A stretch of DNA of 64,000 nt from a virus. The DNA lies in IMG/VR virus record IMGVR_UViG_3300048798_000032, positions 1 through 64,000 of that record. One strand, 5' to 3'. Each line of letters opens with the position of its first letter. Within the stretch, counting starts at the first letter, position 1. The position numbers were made by a program, and so were the translations under genes. The notes under the pieces were generated by a model. It made no database searches. It was given only the letters and a program-made list of their open reading frames with translations, and was not told where the DNA came from. Of this stretch, positions 40,039 through 47,724 are shown piece by piece.

Positions 40039-40967
40039 AGCGCAACCTCTTCAGTGCCGCTTCTGTCCTCGCCGCGCTTTCGTTTATCGCCACCATCTAC
40101 CGGAAGGCTGCCCGGCCACATATACCCGGATTGCCTGAAGATGGTGAGCCTCTTTCCGGTCAGGAAGTACGGCGCTGGATAGGTATCCGGCAGACCTATG
40201 AAGCAGTGGATATCAGTGAACCCGTAACCCCGCACCGAGGGGAGGGTAGATGAGCGCCGCATTGAAGCCGCCCTTTCCCGCCGGGGGGATTATCCGTTAC
40301 TGCCCTCATTGCAGGCAGCCATGGCCGGTACCTGATACCTGCGAATGCGATCACGGCAAGACAGTTCACAACCTCAGCAAGGACGGGAAGCAGCGCACAG
40401 AGTGCTCTGTGTTCACCGTGGAGGGTCCTTGCGGGTGCACGGAATACACCCCTGCGGAGGTGCCCAGTGGCACTTGAAAGTGACATCCGCATGGCAGACG
40501 AGGCAGGCAGGTCGCGGTCAACCCTGGACAGCAGTTACGCCGAGGCACGGGCACTTGCGCTGATCGGGAGTGCGGGGACTACGGCAGAGCAGGACCGGGC
40601 AGCGGCGCTCACGCTGGCGGAATGGGCACGTGACGGAAACGAGTTGGCGGACTGGCTCGAAATGTGCGGGCTGGCACGACCGAAAAGCGCGGCGACGGGA
40701 GTAAGGTCATGAGGCAATTCTATCGTAAATGGCGCTGGATTGCACTGGAGAATGCCTCCACTATGCTACCGTGGGAATGGTGGCGAGTGCGCGTTGACCC
40801 ATTCTGCCGAGGCTGGCAGAAAGCCGTGCGGAATGGGGAGATAGGGTGAAGAAAGCCCTTCCCGTTGCTGCGGGTTTGACCATTCTGGCCGCCATTTTCG
40901 CACGTTCCGGCTATCGCTGGGCATTGCGCCATGACTGTCTTGGCTGCGAATTGTGGAATGGTGCGGC

Positions 40968-42638
40968 ATGACCCCTCTTAATTCCCATTCACCCGGCCGG
41001 GTAGCTGGGGAAGGGTACCCGGCCGGTGGAGGGCCCGGCGTCAACCTGGATCTGTTCGGCGGCCCTGGTGGGTGGGCCGAGGCCCTGGCCGCGCTCGGCC
41101 TGACTGAGATCGGGATCGAGCTCGACGCGGCAGCGTGCGCGACCCGCCGGGCCGCAGGCCACCTAACGATCCGGGCCAGCGTCGCGGCCTTCCCGGTTGA
41201 GCAGCTCGCCGGGCGCGTGCGCGGGCTAGCAGGCAGTCCCCCTTGCACCACTTTTTCGCAGGCTGGCCTTGGTGCGGGTGTCAGGGTCATGGAGATCCTC
41301 GCTCTGGCCATCCGTGACGCGCTCGCTGGCCGCAAGACAAGGGCGCGGCGGATGCGGGAGATGGCCCGTGCGCTCCGTGCCGCCTGGTGGACCGACGCGA
41401 AAGTCAAACTCGATGCTCGGCTCACCCGCGCGGAACGGTCGGCGCGCATCTGGAAGGCCGTCAGGTCGGCCGCCCTGGTCATCGAGCCCGCGCGGTACAT
41501 CCACGCGTGCCGTCCCGAGTGGATAGCGCTGGAGCAGGTTCCCGCCGTCCTGCCGCTGTGGCAGGCGTACGCCACCGAACTCCGCAAGCTGGGCTACTCG
41601 GTATGGGTGGGCAAGCTCAACGCCGCAGATTTTGGTGTGCCGCAGACCCGCGTCAGGGCCATCCTCATCGCCAGCCGGGTACGGAAGGTCACGGTGCCGG
41701 AGCCGACCCACTACGACCCGCGCAAGGGTGATCAGCTCTGGGGTGAGCACTGGGTCAGCATGGCCGAGGCGCTCGGCATAGGCGCGACCGGCCGCCCGGC
41801 ACCCTCCGTGACCGCCGGTGGAACGTCTACCGGGGGTGCCGAGCCGTTCGCCCGCGGTGGCCGGGGCGCGCTCGAGGCCGAGCGGGACGCCGGCCGGTGG
41901 GTGCTGCGGATGGACACCCAGGCGCACGCGTCCGTCCGTGACGTGACAGCGCCAGCGCCAGCGCTGAAGATTGGCCATTCTGCTGCGGATTGTCAATGGG
42001 TGCTGCTGCACACCAACCGTGACCAGCGTCCCGATGGCACCCGGCAGACCGCAGACCCGCATACCGCGCCCGCGCCCGCGCCCGCGCTGACGAGCAAATC
42101 GGGTGGCCAGTGGGAACTGCACCGCAGCAGGGGCGCGAGTGTCAGCCGCCGCGACCATCCCGCCGATGAGCCAGCACCAACGATTACCGGCGCTGGCGGC
42201 AAGCCTGGCGGCAACCTGACGTGGAAACTCCGCAACAACAACAACAACAACAACGCGTGTGAACGGTCAACCGATGAACCGGCTGGGACGTTGTTCTTTG
42301 GCCAGCGGTCCAACTGGGCGGCATGGGTGACCGAGCGCCCGGCAACGACCGTTCAGGGCGACCCGCGGATCGGCCGGCCGGGGCACAAGGGCCCCGAGTC
42401 CGGTGGCGAGTCACAGTTCGCCGTGGACTCCGTCCGCATCACGGTCACCGAGGCTGCGGTACTCCAGTCGTTCAGGCCGGACTATCCGTTCCAGGGGACT
42501 AAGTCGGCGCGGTTCCGGCAAGTGGGCGACGCCTGGTGCCCGCTGGCGGCTATCGCTGTGGTCGGCGTGGCTACCGGTATCGACTGGCGCCCGGTCGCTG
42601 AGAAGTACACCGAGTCGTGCCGGGAGCAGGCCGCATGA
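40968..42638 (+). CDS. orphan DNA cytosine-5 methyltransferase
   Basis: DLFGGPGG, GSPPC, EQV, GVPQTR.R, QVGDA; long variable region with PAPT repeats; start uncertain. Confidence 0.88.
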   Translation: MTPLNSHSPGRVAGEGYPAGGGPGVNLDLFGGPGGWAEALAALGLTEIGIELDAAACATRRAAGHLTIRASVAAFPVEQLAGRVRGLAGSPPCTTFSQAGLGAGVRVMEILALAIRDALAGRKTRARRMREMARALRAAWWTDAKVKLDARLTRAERSARIWKAVRSAALVIEPARYIHACRPEWIALEQVPAVLPLWQAYATELRKLGYSVWVGKLNAADFGVPQTRVRAILIASRVRKVTVPEPTHYDPRKGDQLWGEHWVSMAEALGIGATGRPAPSVTAGGTSTGGAEPFARGGRGALEAERDAGRWVLRMDTQAHASVRDVTAPAPALKIGHSAADCQWVLLHTNRDQRPDGTRQTADPHTAPAPAPALTSKSGGQWELHRSRGASVSRRDHPADEPAPTITGAGGKPGGNLTWKLRNNNNNNNACERSTDEPAGTLFFGQRSNWAAWVTERPATTVQGDPRIGRPGHKGPESGGESQFAVDSVRITVTEAAVLQSFRPDYPFQGTKSARFRQVGDAWCPLAAIAVVGVATGIDWRPVAEKYTESCREQAA

Positions 42639-42694: not shown

Positions 42695-42898
42695 TCAGGA
42701 GTCGGCGGAGACCTTCTCGAACTCAGCCTGATAGCGGCGCACCTGCTCGCGGGTCAGCTTGAGCGTGGCCGCGATGTCGGCCTGCGTGATGTCGCTGCCG
42801 CGGGCCTCCACGATGGCGCGGCCGAGCGCGAGCCGGGTCTCTCTCACCTGCTCGCGGGCGGCCAGATAGGCGTCTCGCGCAGCAACGACGTTGGCCAT
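42695..42898 (-). CDS. small HTH regulator
   Basis: ITQADIAATLKLTREQVRRY; divergent from the repeat locus. Confidence 0.75.
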   Translation of the reverse strand: MANVVAARDAYLAAREQVRETRLALGRAIVEARGSDITQADIAATLKLTREQVRRYQAEFEKVSADS

Positions 42899-42968
42899 GG
42901 CACCGGTCACCTTCCGATTGTCACATGGATGTGGCCTAGGGCAAGTATGCAACATAGACGGGTGCCAC

Positions 42969-43005
42969 GCAACATGTTGCACTGCCACATACTGTGTGGC
43001 ATAGT
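42969..43005 (+). promoter_or_regulatory. promoter with overlapping palindromes
   Basis: TTGCAC-17-CATAGT; GCAACATGTTGC (42969-42980) and TGCCACA-N5-TGTGGCA (42983-43001). Confidence 0.7.
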
Positions 43006-43010
43006 CGGGA

Positions 43011-43367
43011 CCAGCGTGGCGAGGCCCGGCGGTGCGGGGCATGACCGGTCGCGGCTATGGCTAGCCCGGGTTGGGCGAGGCATGGATTCACCAGGGCGGA
43101 TGGCATACAGCCGGGTTCGGGTCCCGGTCGCCCACGCTGGGCTTGGCAGGCCAGTGGCATCGCTGGCCCCGGCATGGTTCGGCTGGGCGCGTCATGGCTC
43201 GCCAAGGCCGGGCTAGGCAAGGAACTACGGCCGACAGGAAGGCACTGGGGTTCGAGCCCTCAGCGGTCACGCAGGGTGCGGCAGGGCAGTGCCAGGCAGG
43301 CCCCGGCGCGGCTCGTTATGGCTGGGCACGGCAGAACCCGGCTTGGTATGGCCCGGCAAGGCAAGGA
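43011..43367 (+). ncRNA. NN-GGY pentamer array, tracts 1-3 with two mini tRNA-like elements
   Basis: tracts 43011-43086 (15 pentamers), 43138-43223 (17), 43273-43367 (19; 14 with GGY); elements 43094-43136 and 43229-43271. Confidence 0.8.
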
Positions 43368-43386
43368 CGCAACGAAAGGGAGAGCG

Positions 43387-43959
43387 ATGGACTTCCGGAT
43401 CACGATCAAGGGCACGGACAGCTTGCTGATGCACAATGCGCGGCTGGCCAATCCGCTCGACCCGGCCGCGAAAGCGGTCAAGAAGCTCACGGGCAAGCGG
43501 AACAAGACCGATGACGACTACGAGGAACTCGCCCACGTTGAGTGGCAGGGGTCGTTCTACTTCGATCCCGACGTCGGCCCGTTCATCCCCGGCGACAACA
43601 TCTGGCGTTCGCTCTATGACGCGGCCAAGAAGCACAAGAAGGGCCCGCGCATCAAGGAAGGCGTGTTCATCGCCACCAGCATCAACCCGATCGCCTATGC
43701 GGGTGCGCGCAGCCTGGACGCGCTGTGGGCTGACGAGAACTTCAAGCACTTCGCCTCGGTGAAAGTCGGCACGGCGCGGACCTCCCGCTGCCGCCCGATG
43801 TTCCGCCAGTGGAAGGTCGCAGCCGATGGCGTGCTGGACACGAATGTCATGGACCTAGCCGAACTCCAGCAGGTTGCCGAGACGGCCGGCTCACTGATCG
43901 GGCTAGGGGACTGGCGCCCGCGGTACGGCCGGTATGTGGCCGAGGTGGAGAAGGTCTAG
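43387..43959 (+). CDS. stand-alone Cas7/RAMP-like protein (190 aa)
   Basis: GAAAGGGAG RBS; FRITIKGTDSLLMHN strand, PFIPGDNIWRSL, C-terminal G-loop GSLIGLGDWRPRYGRY. Confidence 0.75.
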   Translation: MDFRITIKGTDSLLMHNARLANPLDPAAKAVKKLTGKRNKTDDDYEELAHVEWQGSFYFDPDVGPFIPGDNIWRSLYDAAKKHKKGPRIKEGVFIATSINPIAYAGARSLDALWADENFKHFASVKVGTARTSRCRPMFRQWKVAADGVLDTNVMDLAELQQVAETAGSLIGLGDWRPRYGRYVAEVEKV

Positions 43960-43967
43960 GTCTCACC

Positions 43968-44268
43968 TGGGCGTGGCGGGGCGGCGCAAGGCAATCCCAG
44001 GCTTCGCGGGGCGTGGCCGGACAGTGCACTCCTGGCCAAGGCAGCACCAGGGCTTGACAGGGCATTCAGGGTGACCGGCAGGCATCAGGGTTCAAGCCCC
44101 TGACACCCGCGCAGGGTGCGGCTTGCCTGGGCGAGTCGGGCCTGGGCGCGGCCATGCGAGACCGGTCACGGCCGGGCAGTACCTGGCTAGCCGAGGCAAG
44201 GAAGGGCGACATGGCAGACATCAGGGTCCGAGTCCCTGACGCCCACGCTAGGCATGGATACGCAAGAC
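43968..44268 (+). ncRNA. NN-GGY pentamer array, tracts 4-5 with two mini tRNA-like elements and a short stub
   Basis: tracts 43968-44063 (19), 44113-44202 (18); elements 44069-44111 and 44204-44247; stub 44249-44268. Confidence 0.8.
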
Positions 44269-44282
44269 GGAAGGAATCAGGA

Positions 44283-44843
44283 ATGGCAGACAGGGCACCA
44301 TTCGAGCCCATCGGAGAACAAGCCCGGTGGCGCGTGATCTATGAGGCACTGAAAGACGTCCCAGTGGGCGAGACGATTACCTACGAGCGTCTCGGGACTG
44401 TTCTCGATCTTGACCCGAAGGACGACCGGAGCGTCATTCAGCAGGCCATGCACCGCGCAGCCTACGAGTTGGAGACGCAGGACAAGCACGCGGTCGACTC
44501 GGTGCGCGGCATTGGCTACCGCGTCGTAGAGCCTGTAGAGCACATGGGCCTAGCGGTCAGGCAGCAGAAGCGTTCCCGCAGGGCCTTGGAGCGCGGCCAG
44601 TCCAAGGTTGTCAACGTGGACCTCACTGGCATGGAACCGGAAATCCGCAAGGCGTTTGAGGTGCTAGCGACCGGGTTCGCACTTCAGGCCGACTTTAACC
44701 GCCGCATCGAGAACCGGCAGGCGCGACTGGACCGGGCACTGCGTGAGATCAGCGACACGCAGGACACCGACCGCAAGCACAGCGACGAGGAGATCACCGA
44801 ACTCCGCGAACGGCTGGCGCGGCTTGAAGCGGGCACTACCTGA
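44283..44843 (+). CDS. accessory protein, winged-helix-like N-terminus plus coiled coil
   Basis: VPVGETITYERLG...SVRGIGYRVV; heptad-rich C-terminus. Confidence 0.65.
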   Translation: MADRAPFEPIGEQARWRVIYEALKDVPVGETITYERLGTVLDLDPKDDRSVIQQAMHRAAYELETQDKHAVDSVRGIGYRVVEPVEHMGLAVRQQKRSRRALERGQSKVVNVDLTGMEPEIRKAFEVLATGFALQADFNRRIENRQARLDRALREISDTQDTDRKHSDEEITELRERLARLEAGTT

Positions 44844-44850
44844 GTCTTCT

Positions 44851-44905
44851 GGGGCAACGCGTGGCTGGGCACAGCTAGGCGAGTCCAGGCGTGGCGCGGC
44901 ATGGC
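44851..44905 (+). ncRNA. NN-GGY pentamer tract 6
   Basis: 11 in-phase pentamers, 8 with GGC. Confidence 0.7.
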
Positions 44906-44931: not shown

Positions 44932-45894
44932 TTGGCCCGCATCCGGAGCATCAAGCCCGAGGCGTTCACGTCAGAAACGCTGGCCAGCCGCCATGTTCAT
45001 GCGCGGTGGACGTTTGCCGGGCTGTGGTGCTACGTGGATGACGAGGGTCGCGGGCTGGCGAATCCCGGTCTTATCAAGGCTGCCGTTTGGCCGCTAGATG
45101 ACGACATTTCAGTAACCCAGGTGGGCGCATTTCTGGATGACCTTGAAGCCGCCTATGTGATCTGCCGCTACGAAGTTGACGGTAAGCGATACCTGCATGT
45201 CGTCAACTTCGGGGAGCACCAGCACCCGAACCGGCCGCTCCCCAGTAAGTTGCCCGCCTGCTCACGGAGGACTCACGGAGGACTCAGTGAGCAGGCAGTA
45301 CGCACTCATCCGGAAGGCCCTGGCGGTGCTCCTGGCACCCCGGCGGCATCTTCTGAGGCCACGACCACCGAAACCGGGATCCAGGGCGACATAGGCGCAG
45401 GTCAAGACCCACTCACTGAGGACTCAGTGAGTGGTCACGGAGTTGTTAATCCAAAGCCGTCCGGTACCCCTCCTACTCCTCTCCGTTACGAACAAGGAGA
45501 AGGAGATGGAGGGGGAGATGGAGTTCAGCAGGCTACGCCTGCTGCCGCGAAGGACTCGCGGCAGCTCACGGTCACGCAGCGCTCAAAAAGGCTTACCGAC
45601 GCCTATGCCGAAGCCGAGCCGATGTGCAAGTGGCCGGCCGTGAACACCGCCGTCATCCGGGCAATCAAAACCGAGAAGTACGCCGACGAGGAAATCCGCG
45701 ACGCCCTGCTGCGAATGGCCAAGGACGGCACGGGCGTGACCATTGAGTCGCTGCGGGTCGAGCTGGCCGGCTTCGGCAAGCGTGGCTCTGGCCAGCAGTC
45801 CGCTACAAGCCAATCCACGGGGGCCGACCGTGCCCGTGCTGCCCGTGAGGCGGGCCAGCGTGTTCAGGCAATGCTCGAAGGAGGGAACCGGTGA
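44932..45894 (+). CDS. phage replication initiator-like protein
   Basis: MARIRSIKPE, GLWCYVDDEGRG, RYEVDGKRYL..NFGEHQ; internal GAGGACTCA repeats. Confidence 0.75.
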   Translation: MARIRSIKPEAFTSETLASRHVHARWTFAGLWCYVDDEGRGLANPGLIKAAVWPLDDDISVTQVGAFLDDLEAAYVICRYEVDGKRYLHVVNFGEHQHPNRPLPSKLPACSRRTHGGLSEQAVRTHPEGPGGAPGTPAASSEATTTETGIQGDIGAGQDPLTEDSVSGHGVVNPKPSGTPPTPLRYEQGEGDGGGDGVQQATPAAAKDSRQLTVTQRSKRLTDAYAEAEPMCKWPAVNTAVIRAIKTEKYADEEIRDALLRMAKDGTGVTIESLRVELAGFGKRGSGQQSATSQSTGADRARAAREAGQRVQAMLEGGNR

Positions 45895-46385: not shown

Positions 46386-46794
46386 CCGAGGCCGAGGTCC
46401 GCGAGCTGCTGAACGTCTGCGGCGAGTACGACGGCACCGAGTACGGGGAACCCGCGGTGGTGTTCTGGGCTGAGGCCCCGGACTGCCGGTGGCTGCCGAA
46501 CCTGGCCTGCGACGAGGCTCCCGCCGCAGCAAAGATCGCGAGCCTGCTCCTCGGTGATCGGCGTCCCAAGAATCCCGCCGCGTACTGCCGCAAAGCCATC
46601 CAGAGCGACCCTGATCCGGTAGCCCGGTTCGCCATCCCGCCGCTGGCATGGCCGCCCTGGTGCGGCGAGTGCGATGAGCGCGACCGGACCCGCGAGACCG
46701 AACCGCGGCCCGGTGCCGTAGTCACCGTCGAACGGTGCCCGAACTGCCACCCCCTGCGAGACGCAGACCCCAACCCTCCACGAGGAGCAACGGC

Positions 46795-47724
<930 letters not shown>

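What the first reader, a model, noticed from the sequence alone, without database searches (positions are those of the whole stretch)
42695..44905. Candidate non-CRISPR RNA-guided system: lone Cas7/RAMP-like gene within NN-GGY pentamer arrays
Seen: promoter, tracts 1-3, a 190-aa RAMP-like gene, tracts 4-5, an accessory gene and tract 6, all on +, inserted between the methylase and the replication initiator, with no cas1/2/5/6 or CRISPR repeats in the window. Known: Cas7-group RAMPs polymerise on guide RNA at a fixed nucleotide step. Inference: one protomer binds each 5-nt unit by the constant GGY and presents the variable NN, so each tract is a programmable guide, possibly used against competing phages or elements. 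This matches my recollection of recently reported viral RAMP/GGY-NN (VIPR-type) systems; that is recall only and I could not verify it.
Basis: partly seen in the sequence, partly recalled or inferred. Interest (0 to 1): 0.96.

Follow-up and report, generated by a model that had tools for sequence, protein, structure and literature searches.

The report
Phage VIPR guide-RNA system, tRNA-like punctuation
This stretch of an actinobacterial phage genome is a real VIPR system, an RNA-guided DNA-silencing system first reported in 2026 and distantly related to CRISPR; it differs from the published examples in that small tRNA-like hairpins separate its guide RNAs.

Summary
The window contains six same-strand tracts of 11-19 NN-GGY pentamers, a 190-aa RAMP gene (43387-43959) and a 186-aa accessory gene (44283-44843). 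They lie between a C5 methylase and a replication initiator, in a 103-kb IMG/VR phage genome with no Cas1.

The interpretation also holds, but the system is already published. VIPR was described in three 2026 bioRxiv preprints. The protein is 36% identical (E 1e-40) to SUSP1 Vipr, whose structure is solved (PDB 36pp). It keeps the residues that contact GGY, and its model folds like Csm3/Cas7. The accessory gene is a distant Vap1 homologue.

Across 83 homologous loci there are 215 tracts on the vipr strand and 1 on the other strand. NN positions are about as variable as random sequence, while GGY is conserved.

What appears to be new is four 41-42-nt tRNA-like minihelices (acceptor stem, GG-containing linker, T arm, discriminator) in place of the SUSP1 pseudoknot tail. 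A covariance model finds 72 more in related actinophage loci, all on the vipr strand, with compensatory changes in 10 of 11 pairs. None of the four VIPR texts I searched mentions tRNA. Other first-stage notes of this scan flagged the same minihelices.

One guide's 10-unit core spells, under the published one-base-skip rule, the RFDIAHEIGH zinc-protease motif of prophage ImmA/IrrE regulators. No full-length target was found, and no RNA data were available.

The parts
42977..43005 (+). Possible weak promoter: -35 TTGCAC at 42977-42982, -10 CATAGT at 43000-43005. A start near 43012 would fall just before tract A.
   Evidence: Read by eye. It falls below the threshold of the consensus scan, which found nothing. 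This is inference only.
43016..43086 (+). vrRNA tract A: about 14 NN-GGY units with one 6-nt unit. It ends in the unit atGGA.
   Evidence: lag-5 statistic.
43094..43134 (+). tRNA-like minihelix 1: 5-bp acceptor stem, 11-nt linker containing GG, 6-bp T stem, 7-nt T loop, discriminator A.
   Evidence: Covariance model R1, 50.3 bits, E 3e-12. The minimum-free-energy fold gives this structure.
43138..43223 (+). vrRNA tract B (17 units), preceded by CGC. Read antisense, the NN string of units 6-15 spells RFDIAHEIGH.
43229..43269 (+). tRNA-like minihelix 2.
   Evidence: R1, 39 bits, E 8.5e-9. It is 88-90% identical to its counterparts in L008 and L011.
43273..43367 (+). vrRNA tract C (19 units), preceded by CGC. 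It runs without a minihelix into the ribosome-binding site of vipr.
43387..43959 (+). vipr: a 190-aa lone RAMP protein. The 300-aa ORF that begins at 43057 is an over-extension through tracts B and C.
   Evidence: 36% identity and E 1e-40 to SUSP1 Vipr. PDB 36pp_D at E 1.8e-31. phrog_4652 at E 1e-55. AF2 model pLDDT 91.5. Foldseek hits to Csm3/Cas7 at E 4e-6.
43968..44063 (+). vrRNA tract D (19 units, the most degenerate). It starts 9 nt after the vipr stop codon.
44069..44109 (+). tRNA-like minihelix 3 (discriminator G).
   Evidence: R1, 46.5 bits, E 4.5e-11.
44113..44202 (+). vrRNA tract E (18 units), preceded by CGC. It ends in the unit aaGGA.
44204..44245 (+). tRNA-like minihelix 4, followed by CGC and a 4-unit stub (44249-44268) before vap.
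   Evidence: R1, 49.3 bits, E 6.5e-12.
44283..44843 (+). vap1-like accessory gene: 186 aa, a predicted winged-helix DNA-binding N-terminal half and a coiled-coil C-terminal half.
   Evidence: hhalign of family profile A6 against SUSP1 Vap1: probability 91%, E 1e-6. phrog_5926 at E 7e-12. Weak winged-helix Pfam hits. Found beside vipr in 5 of 5 related phages.
44851..44905 (+). vrRNA tract F (11 units), with no adjacent minihelix. It ends 27 nt before the replication-initiator start codon.

Best explanation
This is a VIPR (Viral Interference Programmable Repeat) locus of the SUSP1/type-II kind, carried by a roughly 103-kb phage of a high-GC actinobacterium.

Shown here:
- a Vipr homologue with the GGY-binding residues
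- a Vap1-like gene
- six co-oriented NN-GGY tracts with a conserved scaffold and variable NN positions
- four conserved tRNA-like minihelices between the tracts

Inferred from the published mechanism: the locus is transcribed rightward. Vipr protomers polymerise along each tract, clamping every GGY and presenting every NN. The filament then recognises double-stranded DNA that reads NN-x-NN-x (one skipped base per unit) and silences transcription there, with Vap assisting.

Inferred from the anatomy (about 55% likely): the minihelices mimic the acceptor/T-arm half of a tRNA, so host tRNA-processing enzymes cut the long transcript. RNase P would cut at the 5' side and RNase Z or a similar enzyme after the discriminator. 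This would release the guides and the vipr and vap mRNAs, a natural counterpart of engineered tRNA-guide arrays.

Likely use: repression of a competing prophage or integrative element. The core of guide B matches the HEXXH-motif coding sequence of ImmA/IrrE-type lysis-lysogeny regulators. The phage itself has no such gene.
For: Protein:
- E 1e-40 to SUSP1 Vipr; the only PDB sequence hit is 'SUSP1 Vipr protein' 36pp.
- H16, K32, R136, D175, W176 and R177 align with SUSP1 H17, K33, R138, D177, W178 and R179, named as RNA/DNA contacts in 10.64898/2026.04.26.720927. They are invariant in 30 homologues.
- The model resembles Csm3/Cas7.

RNA tracts:
- The lag-5 statistic is far above shuffles.
- In 83 homologous loci there are 215 tracts on the vipr strand and 1 on the other.
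- Against relatives with 74% Vipr identity, NN positions are 24-41% identical, GGY 69-74% and the minihelices 78-90%.

Minihelices:
- The four window hits score E 3e-12 to 8.5e-9; the next best hit in 64 kb is E 0.1.
- All 72 hits in the related loci are on the vipr strand.
- 97.7% of cells are paired, and 10 of 11 pairs show changes on both sides.
- The pair closing the T loop is G-C in all 62 distinct sequences.
- The spacer after the minihelix is CGC in 27 of 65 junctions.
- In L045, L044, L039 and L034 the array opens with a minihelix directly after a gene. In L045, L039 and L030 it closes with one.

Vap.

Target lead:
- The guide B core matches 20/20 NN positions in two IMG/VR genes.
- In 151 Streptomycetales genomes it gives 11 hits at up to 2 mismatches, against 0 for the reversed control. 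Seven lie on the AHE(I/L)GH motif.
- Four of these genes, tested against Pfam, are HTH plus Peptidase_M78.
- The equal-sized core of guide C gives 0 hits in 101 genomes.
- The phage's own genome has no M78 gene and no self-target.
Against: - There is no RNA evidence: transcription, RNA ends, processing and Vipr binding are all untested. No RNA run was listed.
- No full-length natural target was found. The best whole-guide match for guide B is 25/34.
- About 30% of units have a degenerate GG, and tracts D and E are only weakly periodic, so some guides may be decaying.
- The promoter is weak and no terminator was found.
- Tracts C and F have no downstream minihelix. Tracts A, D and F have none upstream. 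Punctuation is therefore incomplete in this window.
- The acceptor plus T stems stack to 11 bp, not the 12 bp of a tRNA.
- Folding energies of the minihelices are not better than shuffles (z -0.15 to -1.6).
- Supplementary figures of the VIPR papers were not available, so the minihelices may already be described there.
Confidence: 0.85

Rival explanations
1. The VIPR system is the same, but the minihelix is the clade's version of the vrRNA 3' tail. It would stay attached to the upstream tract, cap or nucleate the Vipr filament, and protect the 3' end, as the SUSP1 pseudoknot does. Only its 3' side would be cut. A minihelix that directly follows a gene would then simply stabilise that mRNA's 3' end.
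For: - SUSP1 vrRNAs need a structured 3' tail that caps the RNA, and filament order spreads from it.
- Four of the six window tracts are followed by a minihelix.
- The junction after the minihelix is fixed (discriminator plus CGC in 27 of 65), while the distance from tract end to minihelix varies from 0 to 14 nt. This fits a precise cut on the 3' side only.
- Tracts end in a semi-conserved unit, a(a/t)GGA.
Against: - Acceptor/T-arm minihelices are classical RNase P substrates (established knowledge), so survival of the 5' junction would need protection.
- Tracts C and F, and the equivalent tract upstream of vipr in MakoManhole (L001), have no tail at all.
Confidence: 0.3
2. The locus is a decaying or partly inactive VIPR remnant. 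The protein is intact, but several tracts no longer work as guides.
For: - 30% of units are non-canonical.
- Tracts D and E barely exceed shuffles (6 against a shuffle maximum of 7).
- A 4-unit stub follows minihelix 4.
- No exact targets were found.
Against: [quoted passage not shown]
- Vipr contact residues are invariant.
- The minihelices and the vap gene are conserved.
- The final C of the units is kept almost everywhere.
Confidence: 0.1
3. The pentamer tracts act as DNA, for example as iterons or binding sites of the neighbouring replication initiator, and are unrelated to the RAMP gene.
For: Tract F abuts the replication-initiator gene.
Against: - The tracts follow vipr, on its strand, in 83 loci with unrelated neighbours: tail genes in LittleE and DNA polymerase in Trine.
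- The strand bias is 215 to 1.
- Hypervariable NN positions are the opposite of what binding sites would show.
Confidence: 0.02

Closest known systems
SUSP1 / Pseudomonas fulva VIPR systems (type II VIPR; bioRxiv 10.64898/2026.04.26.720920 and 10.64898/2026.04.26.720927)
   Same: - A lone Vipr RAMP of about 190-200 aa with the same GGY-contact residues.
- A downstream Vap1-like DNA-binding gene.
- NN-GGY tracts on both sides of the genes, on the same strand.
- Conserved GGY and hypervariable NN positions.
- Phage-borne, with no cas genes or CRISPR array.
   Different: - Only 36% protein identity.
- The repeat is NNGGC rather than mostly NNGGT.
- Tracts are longer (17-19 units, against the published 9-16).
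- There is no pseudoknot tail. A 41-nt tRNA-like minihelix sits between tracts instead.
- Tracts flank vipr directly, without spacers, and an array lies between vipr and vap.
- The host is a high-GC actinobacterium.
Hammerhead-ribozyme-interspersed VIPR arrays (mentioned in 10.64898/2026.04.26.720920)
   Same: A structured RNA element alternates with guide tracts and presumably cuts the array into single guides.
   Different: The hammerhead cuts itself. The minihelix has no ribozyme features and would rely on host tRNA-processing enzymes.
Engineered tRNA-guide arrays: polycistronic tRNA-gRNA constructs, and the Haloferax Cas6-independent crRNAs flanked by tRNA-like elements (own knowledge; the latter is mentioned in PMC6546412, which I did not read)
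   Same: Guides are flanked by tRNA-like elements so that RNase P and RNase Z release them.
   Different: Those are man-made and use whole tRNAs or t-elements with CRISPR guides. This one is natural, uses a half-tRNA and serves a non-CRISPR system.
Cas7/Csm3 backbone subunits of class 1 CRISPR effectors
   Same: RRM core, glycine-rich loop and thumb hairpin. The protein polymerises on guide RNA at a fixed step (Foldseek probability 1.0, TM about 0.5).
   Different: 10-16% identity, a 5-nt step rather than 6, no partner Cas5/Cas6/Cas10/Cas11, and no CRISPR repeats.

Membership tests
VIPR system | Vipr protein homologous to an experimentally characterised Vipr | tested here: met
   BLASTP E 1e-40 and 36% identity over 186 aa to SUSP1 Vipr. 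phmmer E 1.8e-31 to PDB 36pp 'SUSP1 Vipr protein'.
VIPR system | RAMP fold with glycine-rich loop and thumb | tested here: met
   AF2 pLDDT 91.5. The top Foldseek hits are all Csm3/Cas7. The G-loop motif G-L-G-D-W-R-P-R-Y-G lies at residues 172-181, and a beta hairpin at 120-139 serves as the thumb.
VIPR system | Residues that read GGY and hold the skipped base (SUSP1 H17, K33, R138, D177, W178, R179) | tested here: met
   They align with H16, K32, R136, D175, W176 and R177, which are invariant in 30 homologues.
VIPR system | At least 4 tandem YNNGG/NNGGY units in non-coding DNA beside vipr, on its strand | tested here: met
   Six tracts of 11-19 units, with shuffle statistics. Across 83 homologous loci the count is 215 on the vipr strand and 1 on the other.
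VIPR system | GGY conserved and NN hypervariable between relatives | tested here: met
   NN positions 24-41% identical against GGY 69-74%.
VIPR system | Invariant structured 3' tail after each repeat tract (a pseudoknot in the SUSP1 clade) | tested here: inconclusive
   No pseudoknot tail was seen. A conserved tRNA-like minihelix follows 4 of 6 tracts. Whether it remains on the mature RNA is unknown.
VIPR system | Adjacent vap accessory gene | tested here: met
   hhalign probability 91%, E 1e-6 to SUSP1 Vap1. Present in 5 of 5 related phages.
VIPR system | No CRISPR array or cas operon; viral genome | tested here: met
   No Cas1 in the 103-kb IMG/VR virus record. Only short-period repeats were found near the locus.
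VIPR system | vrRNAs are expressed and co-purify with Vipr | not testable with these tools
   No RNA run was listed for the locus.
VIPR system | Guides match natural DNA targets under the one-base-skip rule | tested here: inconclusive
   The 10-unit core of guide B matches the HEXXH region of Peptidase_M78 genes. No match to a whole guide was found.
tRNA gene | Full cloverleaf with D arm and anticodon arm | tested here: not met
   ARAGORN finds no tRNA in the window and there is no Rfam tRNA hit at E up to 5. Only an acceptor stem, an 11-12-nt linker and a T arm are present.
tRNA-like processing element (RNase P / RNase Z substrate) | Coaxial acceptor and T stems, T-loop consensus, G-C closing pair, unpaired discriminator | tested here: met
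   5+6 bp stems, a T loop of the form UUCGAGU, a G-C closing pair in 62 of 62 sequences, discriminator A or G, and covariation in 10 of 11 pairs.
tRNA-like processing element (RNase P / RNase Z substrate) | Actual cleavage by the enzymes | not testable with these tools
   This needs end-mapping or an in vitro assay.
CRISPR-Cas | CRISPR repeat-spacer array and adaptation genes | tested here: not met

The most novel reading that the evidence does not exclude
Actinophage VIPR arrays are natural 'tRNA-punctuated' guide arrays. Half-tRNA minihelices recruit host RNase P and RNase Z to cut one transcript into guides and mRNAs. After cutting, the vipr mRNA would keep guide tracts as its 5' and 3' untranslated regions (tracts C and D). 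Excess Vipr could then coat its own leader, 20 nt from the start codon, and shut off its own translation.
Probability: 0.4. Interest if true: 0.75.

Novelty: new variant of a known kind. Interest (0 to 1): 0.55.

Why it matters
- Reach of the family: this places VIPR in actinobacterial phages, including ones that can be worked with in the laboratory. Examples are mycobacteriophage LittleE, Gordonia phages Trine and MakoManhole, and Mycobacterium abscessus prophages such as prophiBWHA-1.
- Guide maturation: it points to a third way that VIPR guides may mature, by borrowing the host's tRNA-processing machinery. If confirmed, this would be a natural precedent for the tRNA-guide arrays that genome engineers designed independently. 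It would also offer a compact 41-nt processing element for multiplexed VIPR tools.
- Target: the guide B lead is a concrete, testable hypothesis. It agrees with the published observation that VIPR guides aim at lysis-lysogeny regulators of rival prophages.

Tried and rejected
Annotation and RNA searches
- Rfam at E up to 5 gave only chance-level miRNA and riboswitch hits.
- ARAGORN found no tRNA.
- Pfam finds nothing for Vipr.
- Promoter and terminator consensus scans found nothing.
- Sequencing-run search: no RNA holder was listed.
- No supplementary files of the VIPR paper are held, so VIPR type tables and array figures could not be checked.

Target searches under the one-base-skip rule
- Nothing above permuted-guide controls in the phage's own 103-kb genome or in about 570 kb of related loci. 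Only the trivial self-match at skip 3 appeared.
- Exact 10-11-unit seeds of guides C, F and B gave 0 hits in IMG/VR.
- The guide C seed gave 2 hits in JGI metagenomes, with chance-level extension.
- 8-unit seeds of guides C and B gave 10 and 12 IMG/VR hits. All were chance-level except the two M78 genes.
- Fifteen units of guide C at up to 3 mismatches gave 0 hits in 401 Actinomycetes genomes.
- Guides A and C-F showed nothing in the M78 loci.

Ideas rejected
- The 300-aa ORF starting at 43057 as the real gene: homologues start at the M-D-F-R-I-T position, and a period of 5 is not a coding period.
- The upstream HTH gene as part of the system: it is not conserved.
- Minihelix folding energy as evidence: z-scores are weak.
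- NN GC content (0.50, against 0.67 for the genome) as proof of codon-position targeting: it is only suggestive.
Full report
WHAT IS THERE

The window is the first 64 kb of a 103,428-bp IMG/VR virus record. CheckV estimates it 95% complete and its GC content is 67%.

Between a C5 cytosine methylase (40953-42638; PF00145, E 1e-21) and a replication initiator (44932-45894; phrog_2149, E 2e-36) lie the following:
- a divergent 67-aa HTH gene (42695-42898, minus strand)
- a 115-nt AT-richer gap with palindromes
- on the plus strand, in order: tract A, minihelix 1, tract B, minihelix 2, tract C, a 190-aa gene (43387-43959), tract D, minihelix 3, tract E, minihelix 4, a 4-unit stub, a 186-aa gene (44283-44843) and tract F

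The tracts have 11-19 units of NN-GGY. The final C is kept almost everywhere, and the GG is degenerate in about 30% of units.

IS IT MORE THAN CHANCE?

I counted GGY pairs exactly 5 nt apart and compared them with 1000 dinucleotide-preserving shuffles:
- upstream region: 19 observed, 2.8 +/- 1.7 expected, maximum 9
- vipr-vap region: 6 observed, 1.6 +/- 1.3 expected, maximum 7
- last region: 4 observed, 0.6 +/- 0.8 expected

Tracts D and E alone are therefore only modestly significant. No other place in the 103-kb genome, on either strand, reaches the tract score.

The stronger control is comparative. In 83 loci that encode homologues of the 190-aa protein, the same caller finds 215 tracts on the gene's strand and 1 on the opposite strand. 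The four GenBank actinophages examined also carry them.

THE PROTEIN

Pfam has no model for it, but PHROG 4652 matches at E 1e-55.

It is 36% identical (E 1e-40) to the Vipr protein of coliphage SUSP1 (KT454805.2, 28495-29049, minus strand). The only sequence hit in the PDB is 36pp, 'SUSP1 Vipr protein', at E 1.8e-31.

The cryo-EM preprint 10.64898/2026.04.26.720927 names SUSP1 H17, D177, R138, W178 and R179 as the GGY contacts, and K33 as the contact beside the skipped target base. These align with H16, D175, R136, W176, R177 and K32 here, and all are invariant in a 30-sequence alignment.

An AlphaFold2 model (pLDDT 91.5, pTM 0.85) hits only Csm3/Cas7 subunits of type III and type VII CRISPR complexes (E 4e-6, probability 1.0, TM about 0.45-0.53).

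THE ACCESSORY GENE

It matches PHROG 5926 and gives weak winged-helix hits. It lies beside vipr in 5 of 5 related phages. A 23-sequence profile aligns to SUSP1 Vap1 with hhalign probability 91% and E 1e-6 over 61 columns, including a shared G-(I/V)-G-Y-R-V-V-E-P motif.

WHAT IS KNOWN

bioRxiv 10.64898/2026.04.26.720920 defines VIPR by these features:
- a phage-borne lone RAMP and a vap gene
- vrRNAs of 9-16 YNNGG units followed by a structured 3' tail
- recognition of double-stranded DNA that reads NN-x-NN (the 'one-nucleotide skip')
- transcriptional silencing
- natural targets in rival satellites and prophages, often lysis-lysogeny regulators

A third preprint, 10.64898/2026.10.15.759431, shows SUSP1 using VIPR against a satellite. 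The locus meets every sequence-level criterion I could test (see the membership table). This includes the hallmark contrast between conserved scaffold and variable guide positions. Against the two closest loci (L008 and L011, 74% Vipr identity), NN positions are 24-41% identical, GGY positions 69-74% and the minihelices 78-90%.

WHAT DIFFERS: THE MINIHELICES

SUSP1 tracts end in a roughly 40-nt pseudoknot tail. Here there is none.

Instead, four 41-42-nt elements share one design: a 5-bp stem, an 11-12-nt linker with a near-invariant GG, a 6-bp stem, a 7-nt loop of the form UUCGAGU, the return strands, and an unpaired A or G. They lie at 43094-43134, 43229-43269, 44069-44109 and 44204-44245. 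This is the acceptor/T-arm half of a tRNA with a D-loop-like linker. It is not a tRNA gene (ARAGORN and Rfam are negative).

Evidence that the element is real:
- A simple pairing regex found 64 such elements on the vipr strand of the related loci and 1 on the other strand.
- A covariance model built from them finds exactly the four window elements (E 3e-12 to 8.5e-9), with the next hit in 64 kb at E 0.1.
- The model finds 72 elements in 435 kb of related loci, all on the vipr strand. Twelve or more of these had not been picked by the regex.
- They occur only in loci whose Vipr is at least about 44% identical to this one (the high-GC actinophage clade). They are absent from the more distant loci, including the SUSP1-like coliphages.
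- 97.7% of cells pair, 10 of 11 pairs show changes on both sides, and sliding the partner by one column drops pairing to 52-57%.

Two caveats apply. The seed sequences were chosen by a pairing rule, and the second alignment was fitted to the model. The strand and position specificity, and features that no rule required (the G-C closing pair in 62 of 62, the GG in the linker), are therefore the independent evidence. Folding energy alone is not informative (z -0.15 to -1.6).

None of the four texts that mention VIPR contains the word tRNA. The main paper lists 'staggered', 'hammerhead ribozyme-interspersed' and single-guide arrays. Its supplementary figures were not available, so I cannot exclude that the element is drawn there. 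Other first-stage notes in this scan independently flagged the four minihelices.

HOW THE MINIHELICES PROBABLY WORK

Two readings fit, and RNA ends would decide between them.

(a) Punctuation. RNase P cuts before the acceptor stem, and RNase Z or a similar enzyme cuts after the discriminator, releasing the guides and mRNAs. In favour:
- In L045, L044, L039 (phage Trine) and L034 the array opens with a minihelix directly after a coding gene.
- In L045, L039 and L030 it closes with one, giving n+1 minihelices for n tracts.
- Acceptor/T-arm minihelices are classical RNase P substrates (established knowledge).

(b) Tail. Only the 3' side is cut, and the minihelix stays on the upstream guide as its cap, like the SUSP1 pseudoknot. 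In favour:
- The junction after the minihelix is fixed (discriminator plus CGC in 27 of 65), whereas the gap before it ranges from 0 to 14 nt.
- Tracts end in a semi-conserved unit, a(a/t)GGA.

I put (a) at about 55%, (b) at about 30%, and the rest on neither. In either case tracts C and D would remain joined to the vipr coding region. Tract C ends 20 nt before the start codon, so Vipr could repress its own translation. This is speculation.

TARGETS

No guide matches the phage's own genome or the related VIPR loci above permuted controls. The phage therefore does not target itself.

Exact seeds of guides C, F and B found nothing meaningful in IMG/VR or JGI metagenomes, with one exception. Units 6-15 of guide B match 20 of 20 NN positions in two viral genes (L111, L108). 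Read on the coding strand with the skipped base as the third codon position, those ten units spell R-F-D-I-A-H-E-I-G-H.

With up to 2 mismatches, the same 20-base pattern hits 11 sites in 151 Streptomycetales genomes, against 0 for the reversed control. Seven of these sites lie on RF(D/T/V)(I/V)AHE(I/L)GH. A same-sized core of guide C hits 0 of 101 genomes.

Four of these genes, tested against Pfam, are XRE-type HTH plus Peptidase_M78 (the ImmA/IrrE family; PF06114, E 4e-13 to 3e-24). This is the anti-repressor protease class of prophage and integrative-element switches.

The phage's own genome has no M78 gene. The flanking units do not match any sampled gene (best 25/34), so the true target is unsampled or the lead is coincidental. 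I rate 'guide B targets an ImmA/IrrE-type gene' at about 50%.

VERDICT

- Observation: confirmed.
- Interpretation: supported.
- System: already described in 2026, so this is not a new class.
- It is a new, divergent member from actinophages with an apparently undescribed array architecture.
- Expression, processing, binding and targets remain inferred.

Noticed in passing
L003:2554-2943 (Mycobacterium phage LittleE, gp35, minus strand): The annotated hypothetical CDS gp35 lies opposite two NN-GGY tracts and two tRNA-like minihelices upstream of the LittleE vipr homologue (gp34). It is probably a spurious gene call over vrRNA genes.
   Followed up: partly
L047-L051; GenBank OQ417975.1 (prophiBWHA-1) and relatives: Mycobacterium abscessus prophages carry the same vipr/vap pair, with two tracts and two minihelices upstream of vipr.
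   Followed up: partly
window:42695-43005: A divergent 67-aa HTH gene, and a gap containing palindromes (TGCAACAT/ATGTTGCA at 42948-42981, and 19-nt arms at 42963-43001). They overlap the possible VIPR promoter and look like operators. The HTH gene is not conserved in five related phages.
   Followed up: partly
window:43162-43201 and L001:1694-1751, L001:2894-2966: Tract B contains an internal duplication of about 20 nt (4 units). Tracts B and C share runs of units with tracts of Gordonia phage MakoManhole (for example tgGCC ccGGC, and gcGTC ... tcGCC aaGGC). This hints that guides arise by unit duplication, or share ancestry or targets.
   Followed up: no
window:47267-47701: A roughly 300-nt trinucleotide repeat reads as about 100 residues of Ala/Thr in the 329-aa ORF 46735-47724. 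In other frames it reads as poly-Pro, poly-Gly or Arg/Trp.
   Followed up: no
window:40953-42638: The methylase ORF contains a run of seven Asn codons in a 67% GC genome. This is a short trinucleotide repeat inside the gene.
   Followed up: no
window:43273-43367 (guide C): Read antisense, the 3' half of guide C spells F-G-I-K-G-L-V-Q-I-D. Both chance metagenome hits carry this peptide in an open frame. It loosely resembles the GxxGLVHIS motif of S1 RNA-binding domains. It had no support in 101 Streptomycetales genomes.
   Followed up: partly
same genome, beyond the window's end: Earlier notes of this scan report a Ro60 gene with an array of five Y-RNA-like RNAs in this phage. If so, the genome carries two separate families of tRNA-mimicking small RNAs.
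   Followed up: no
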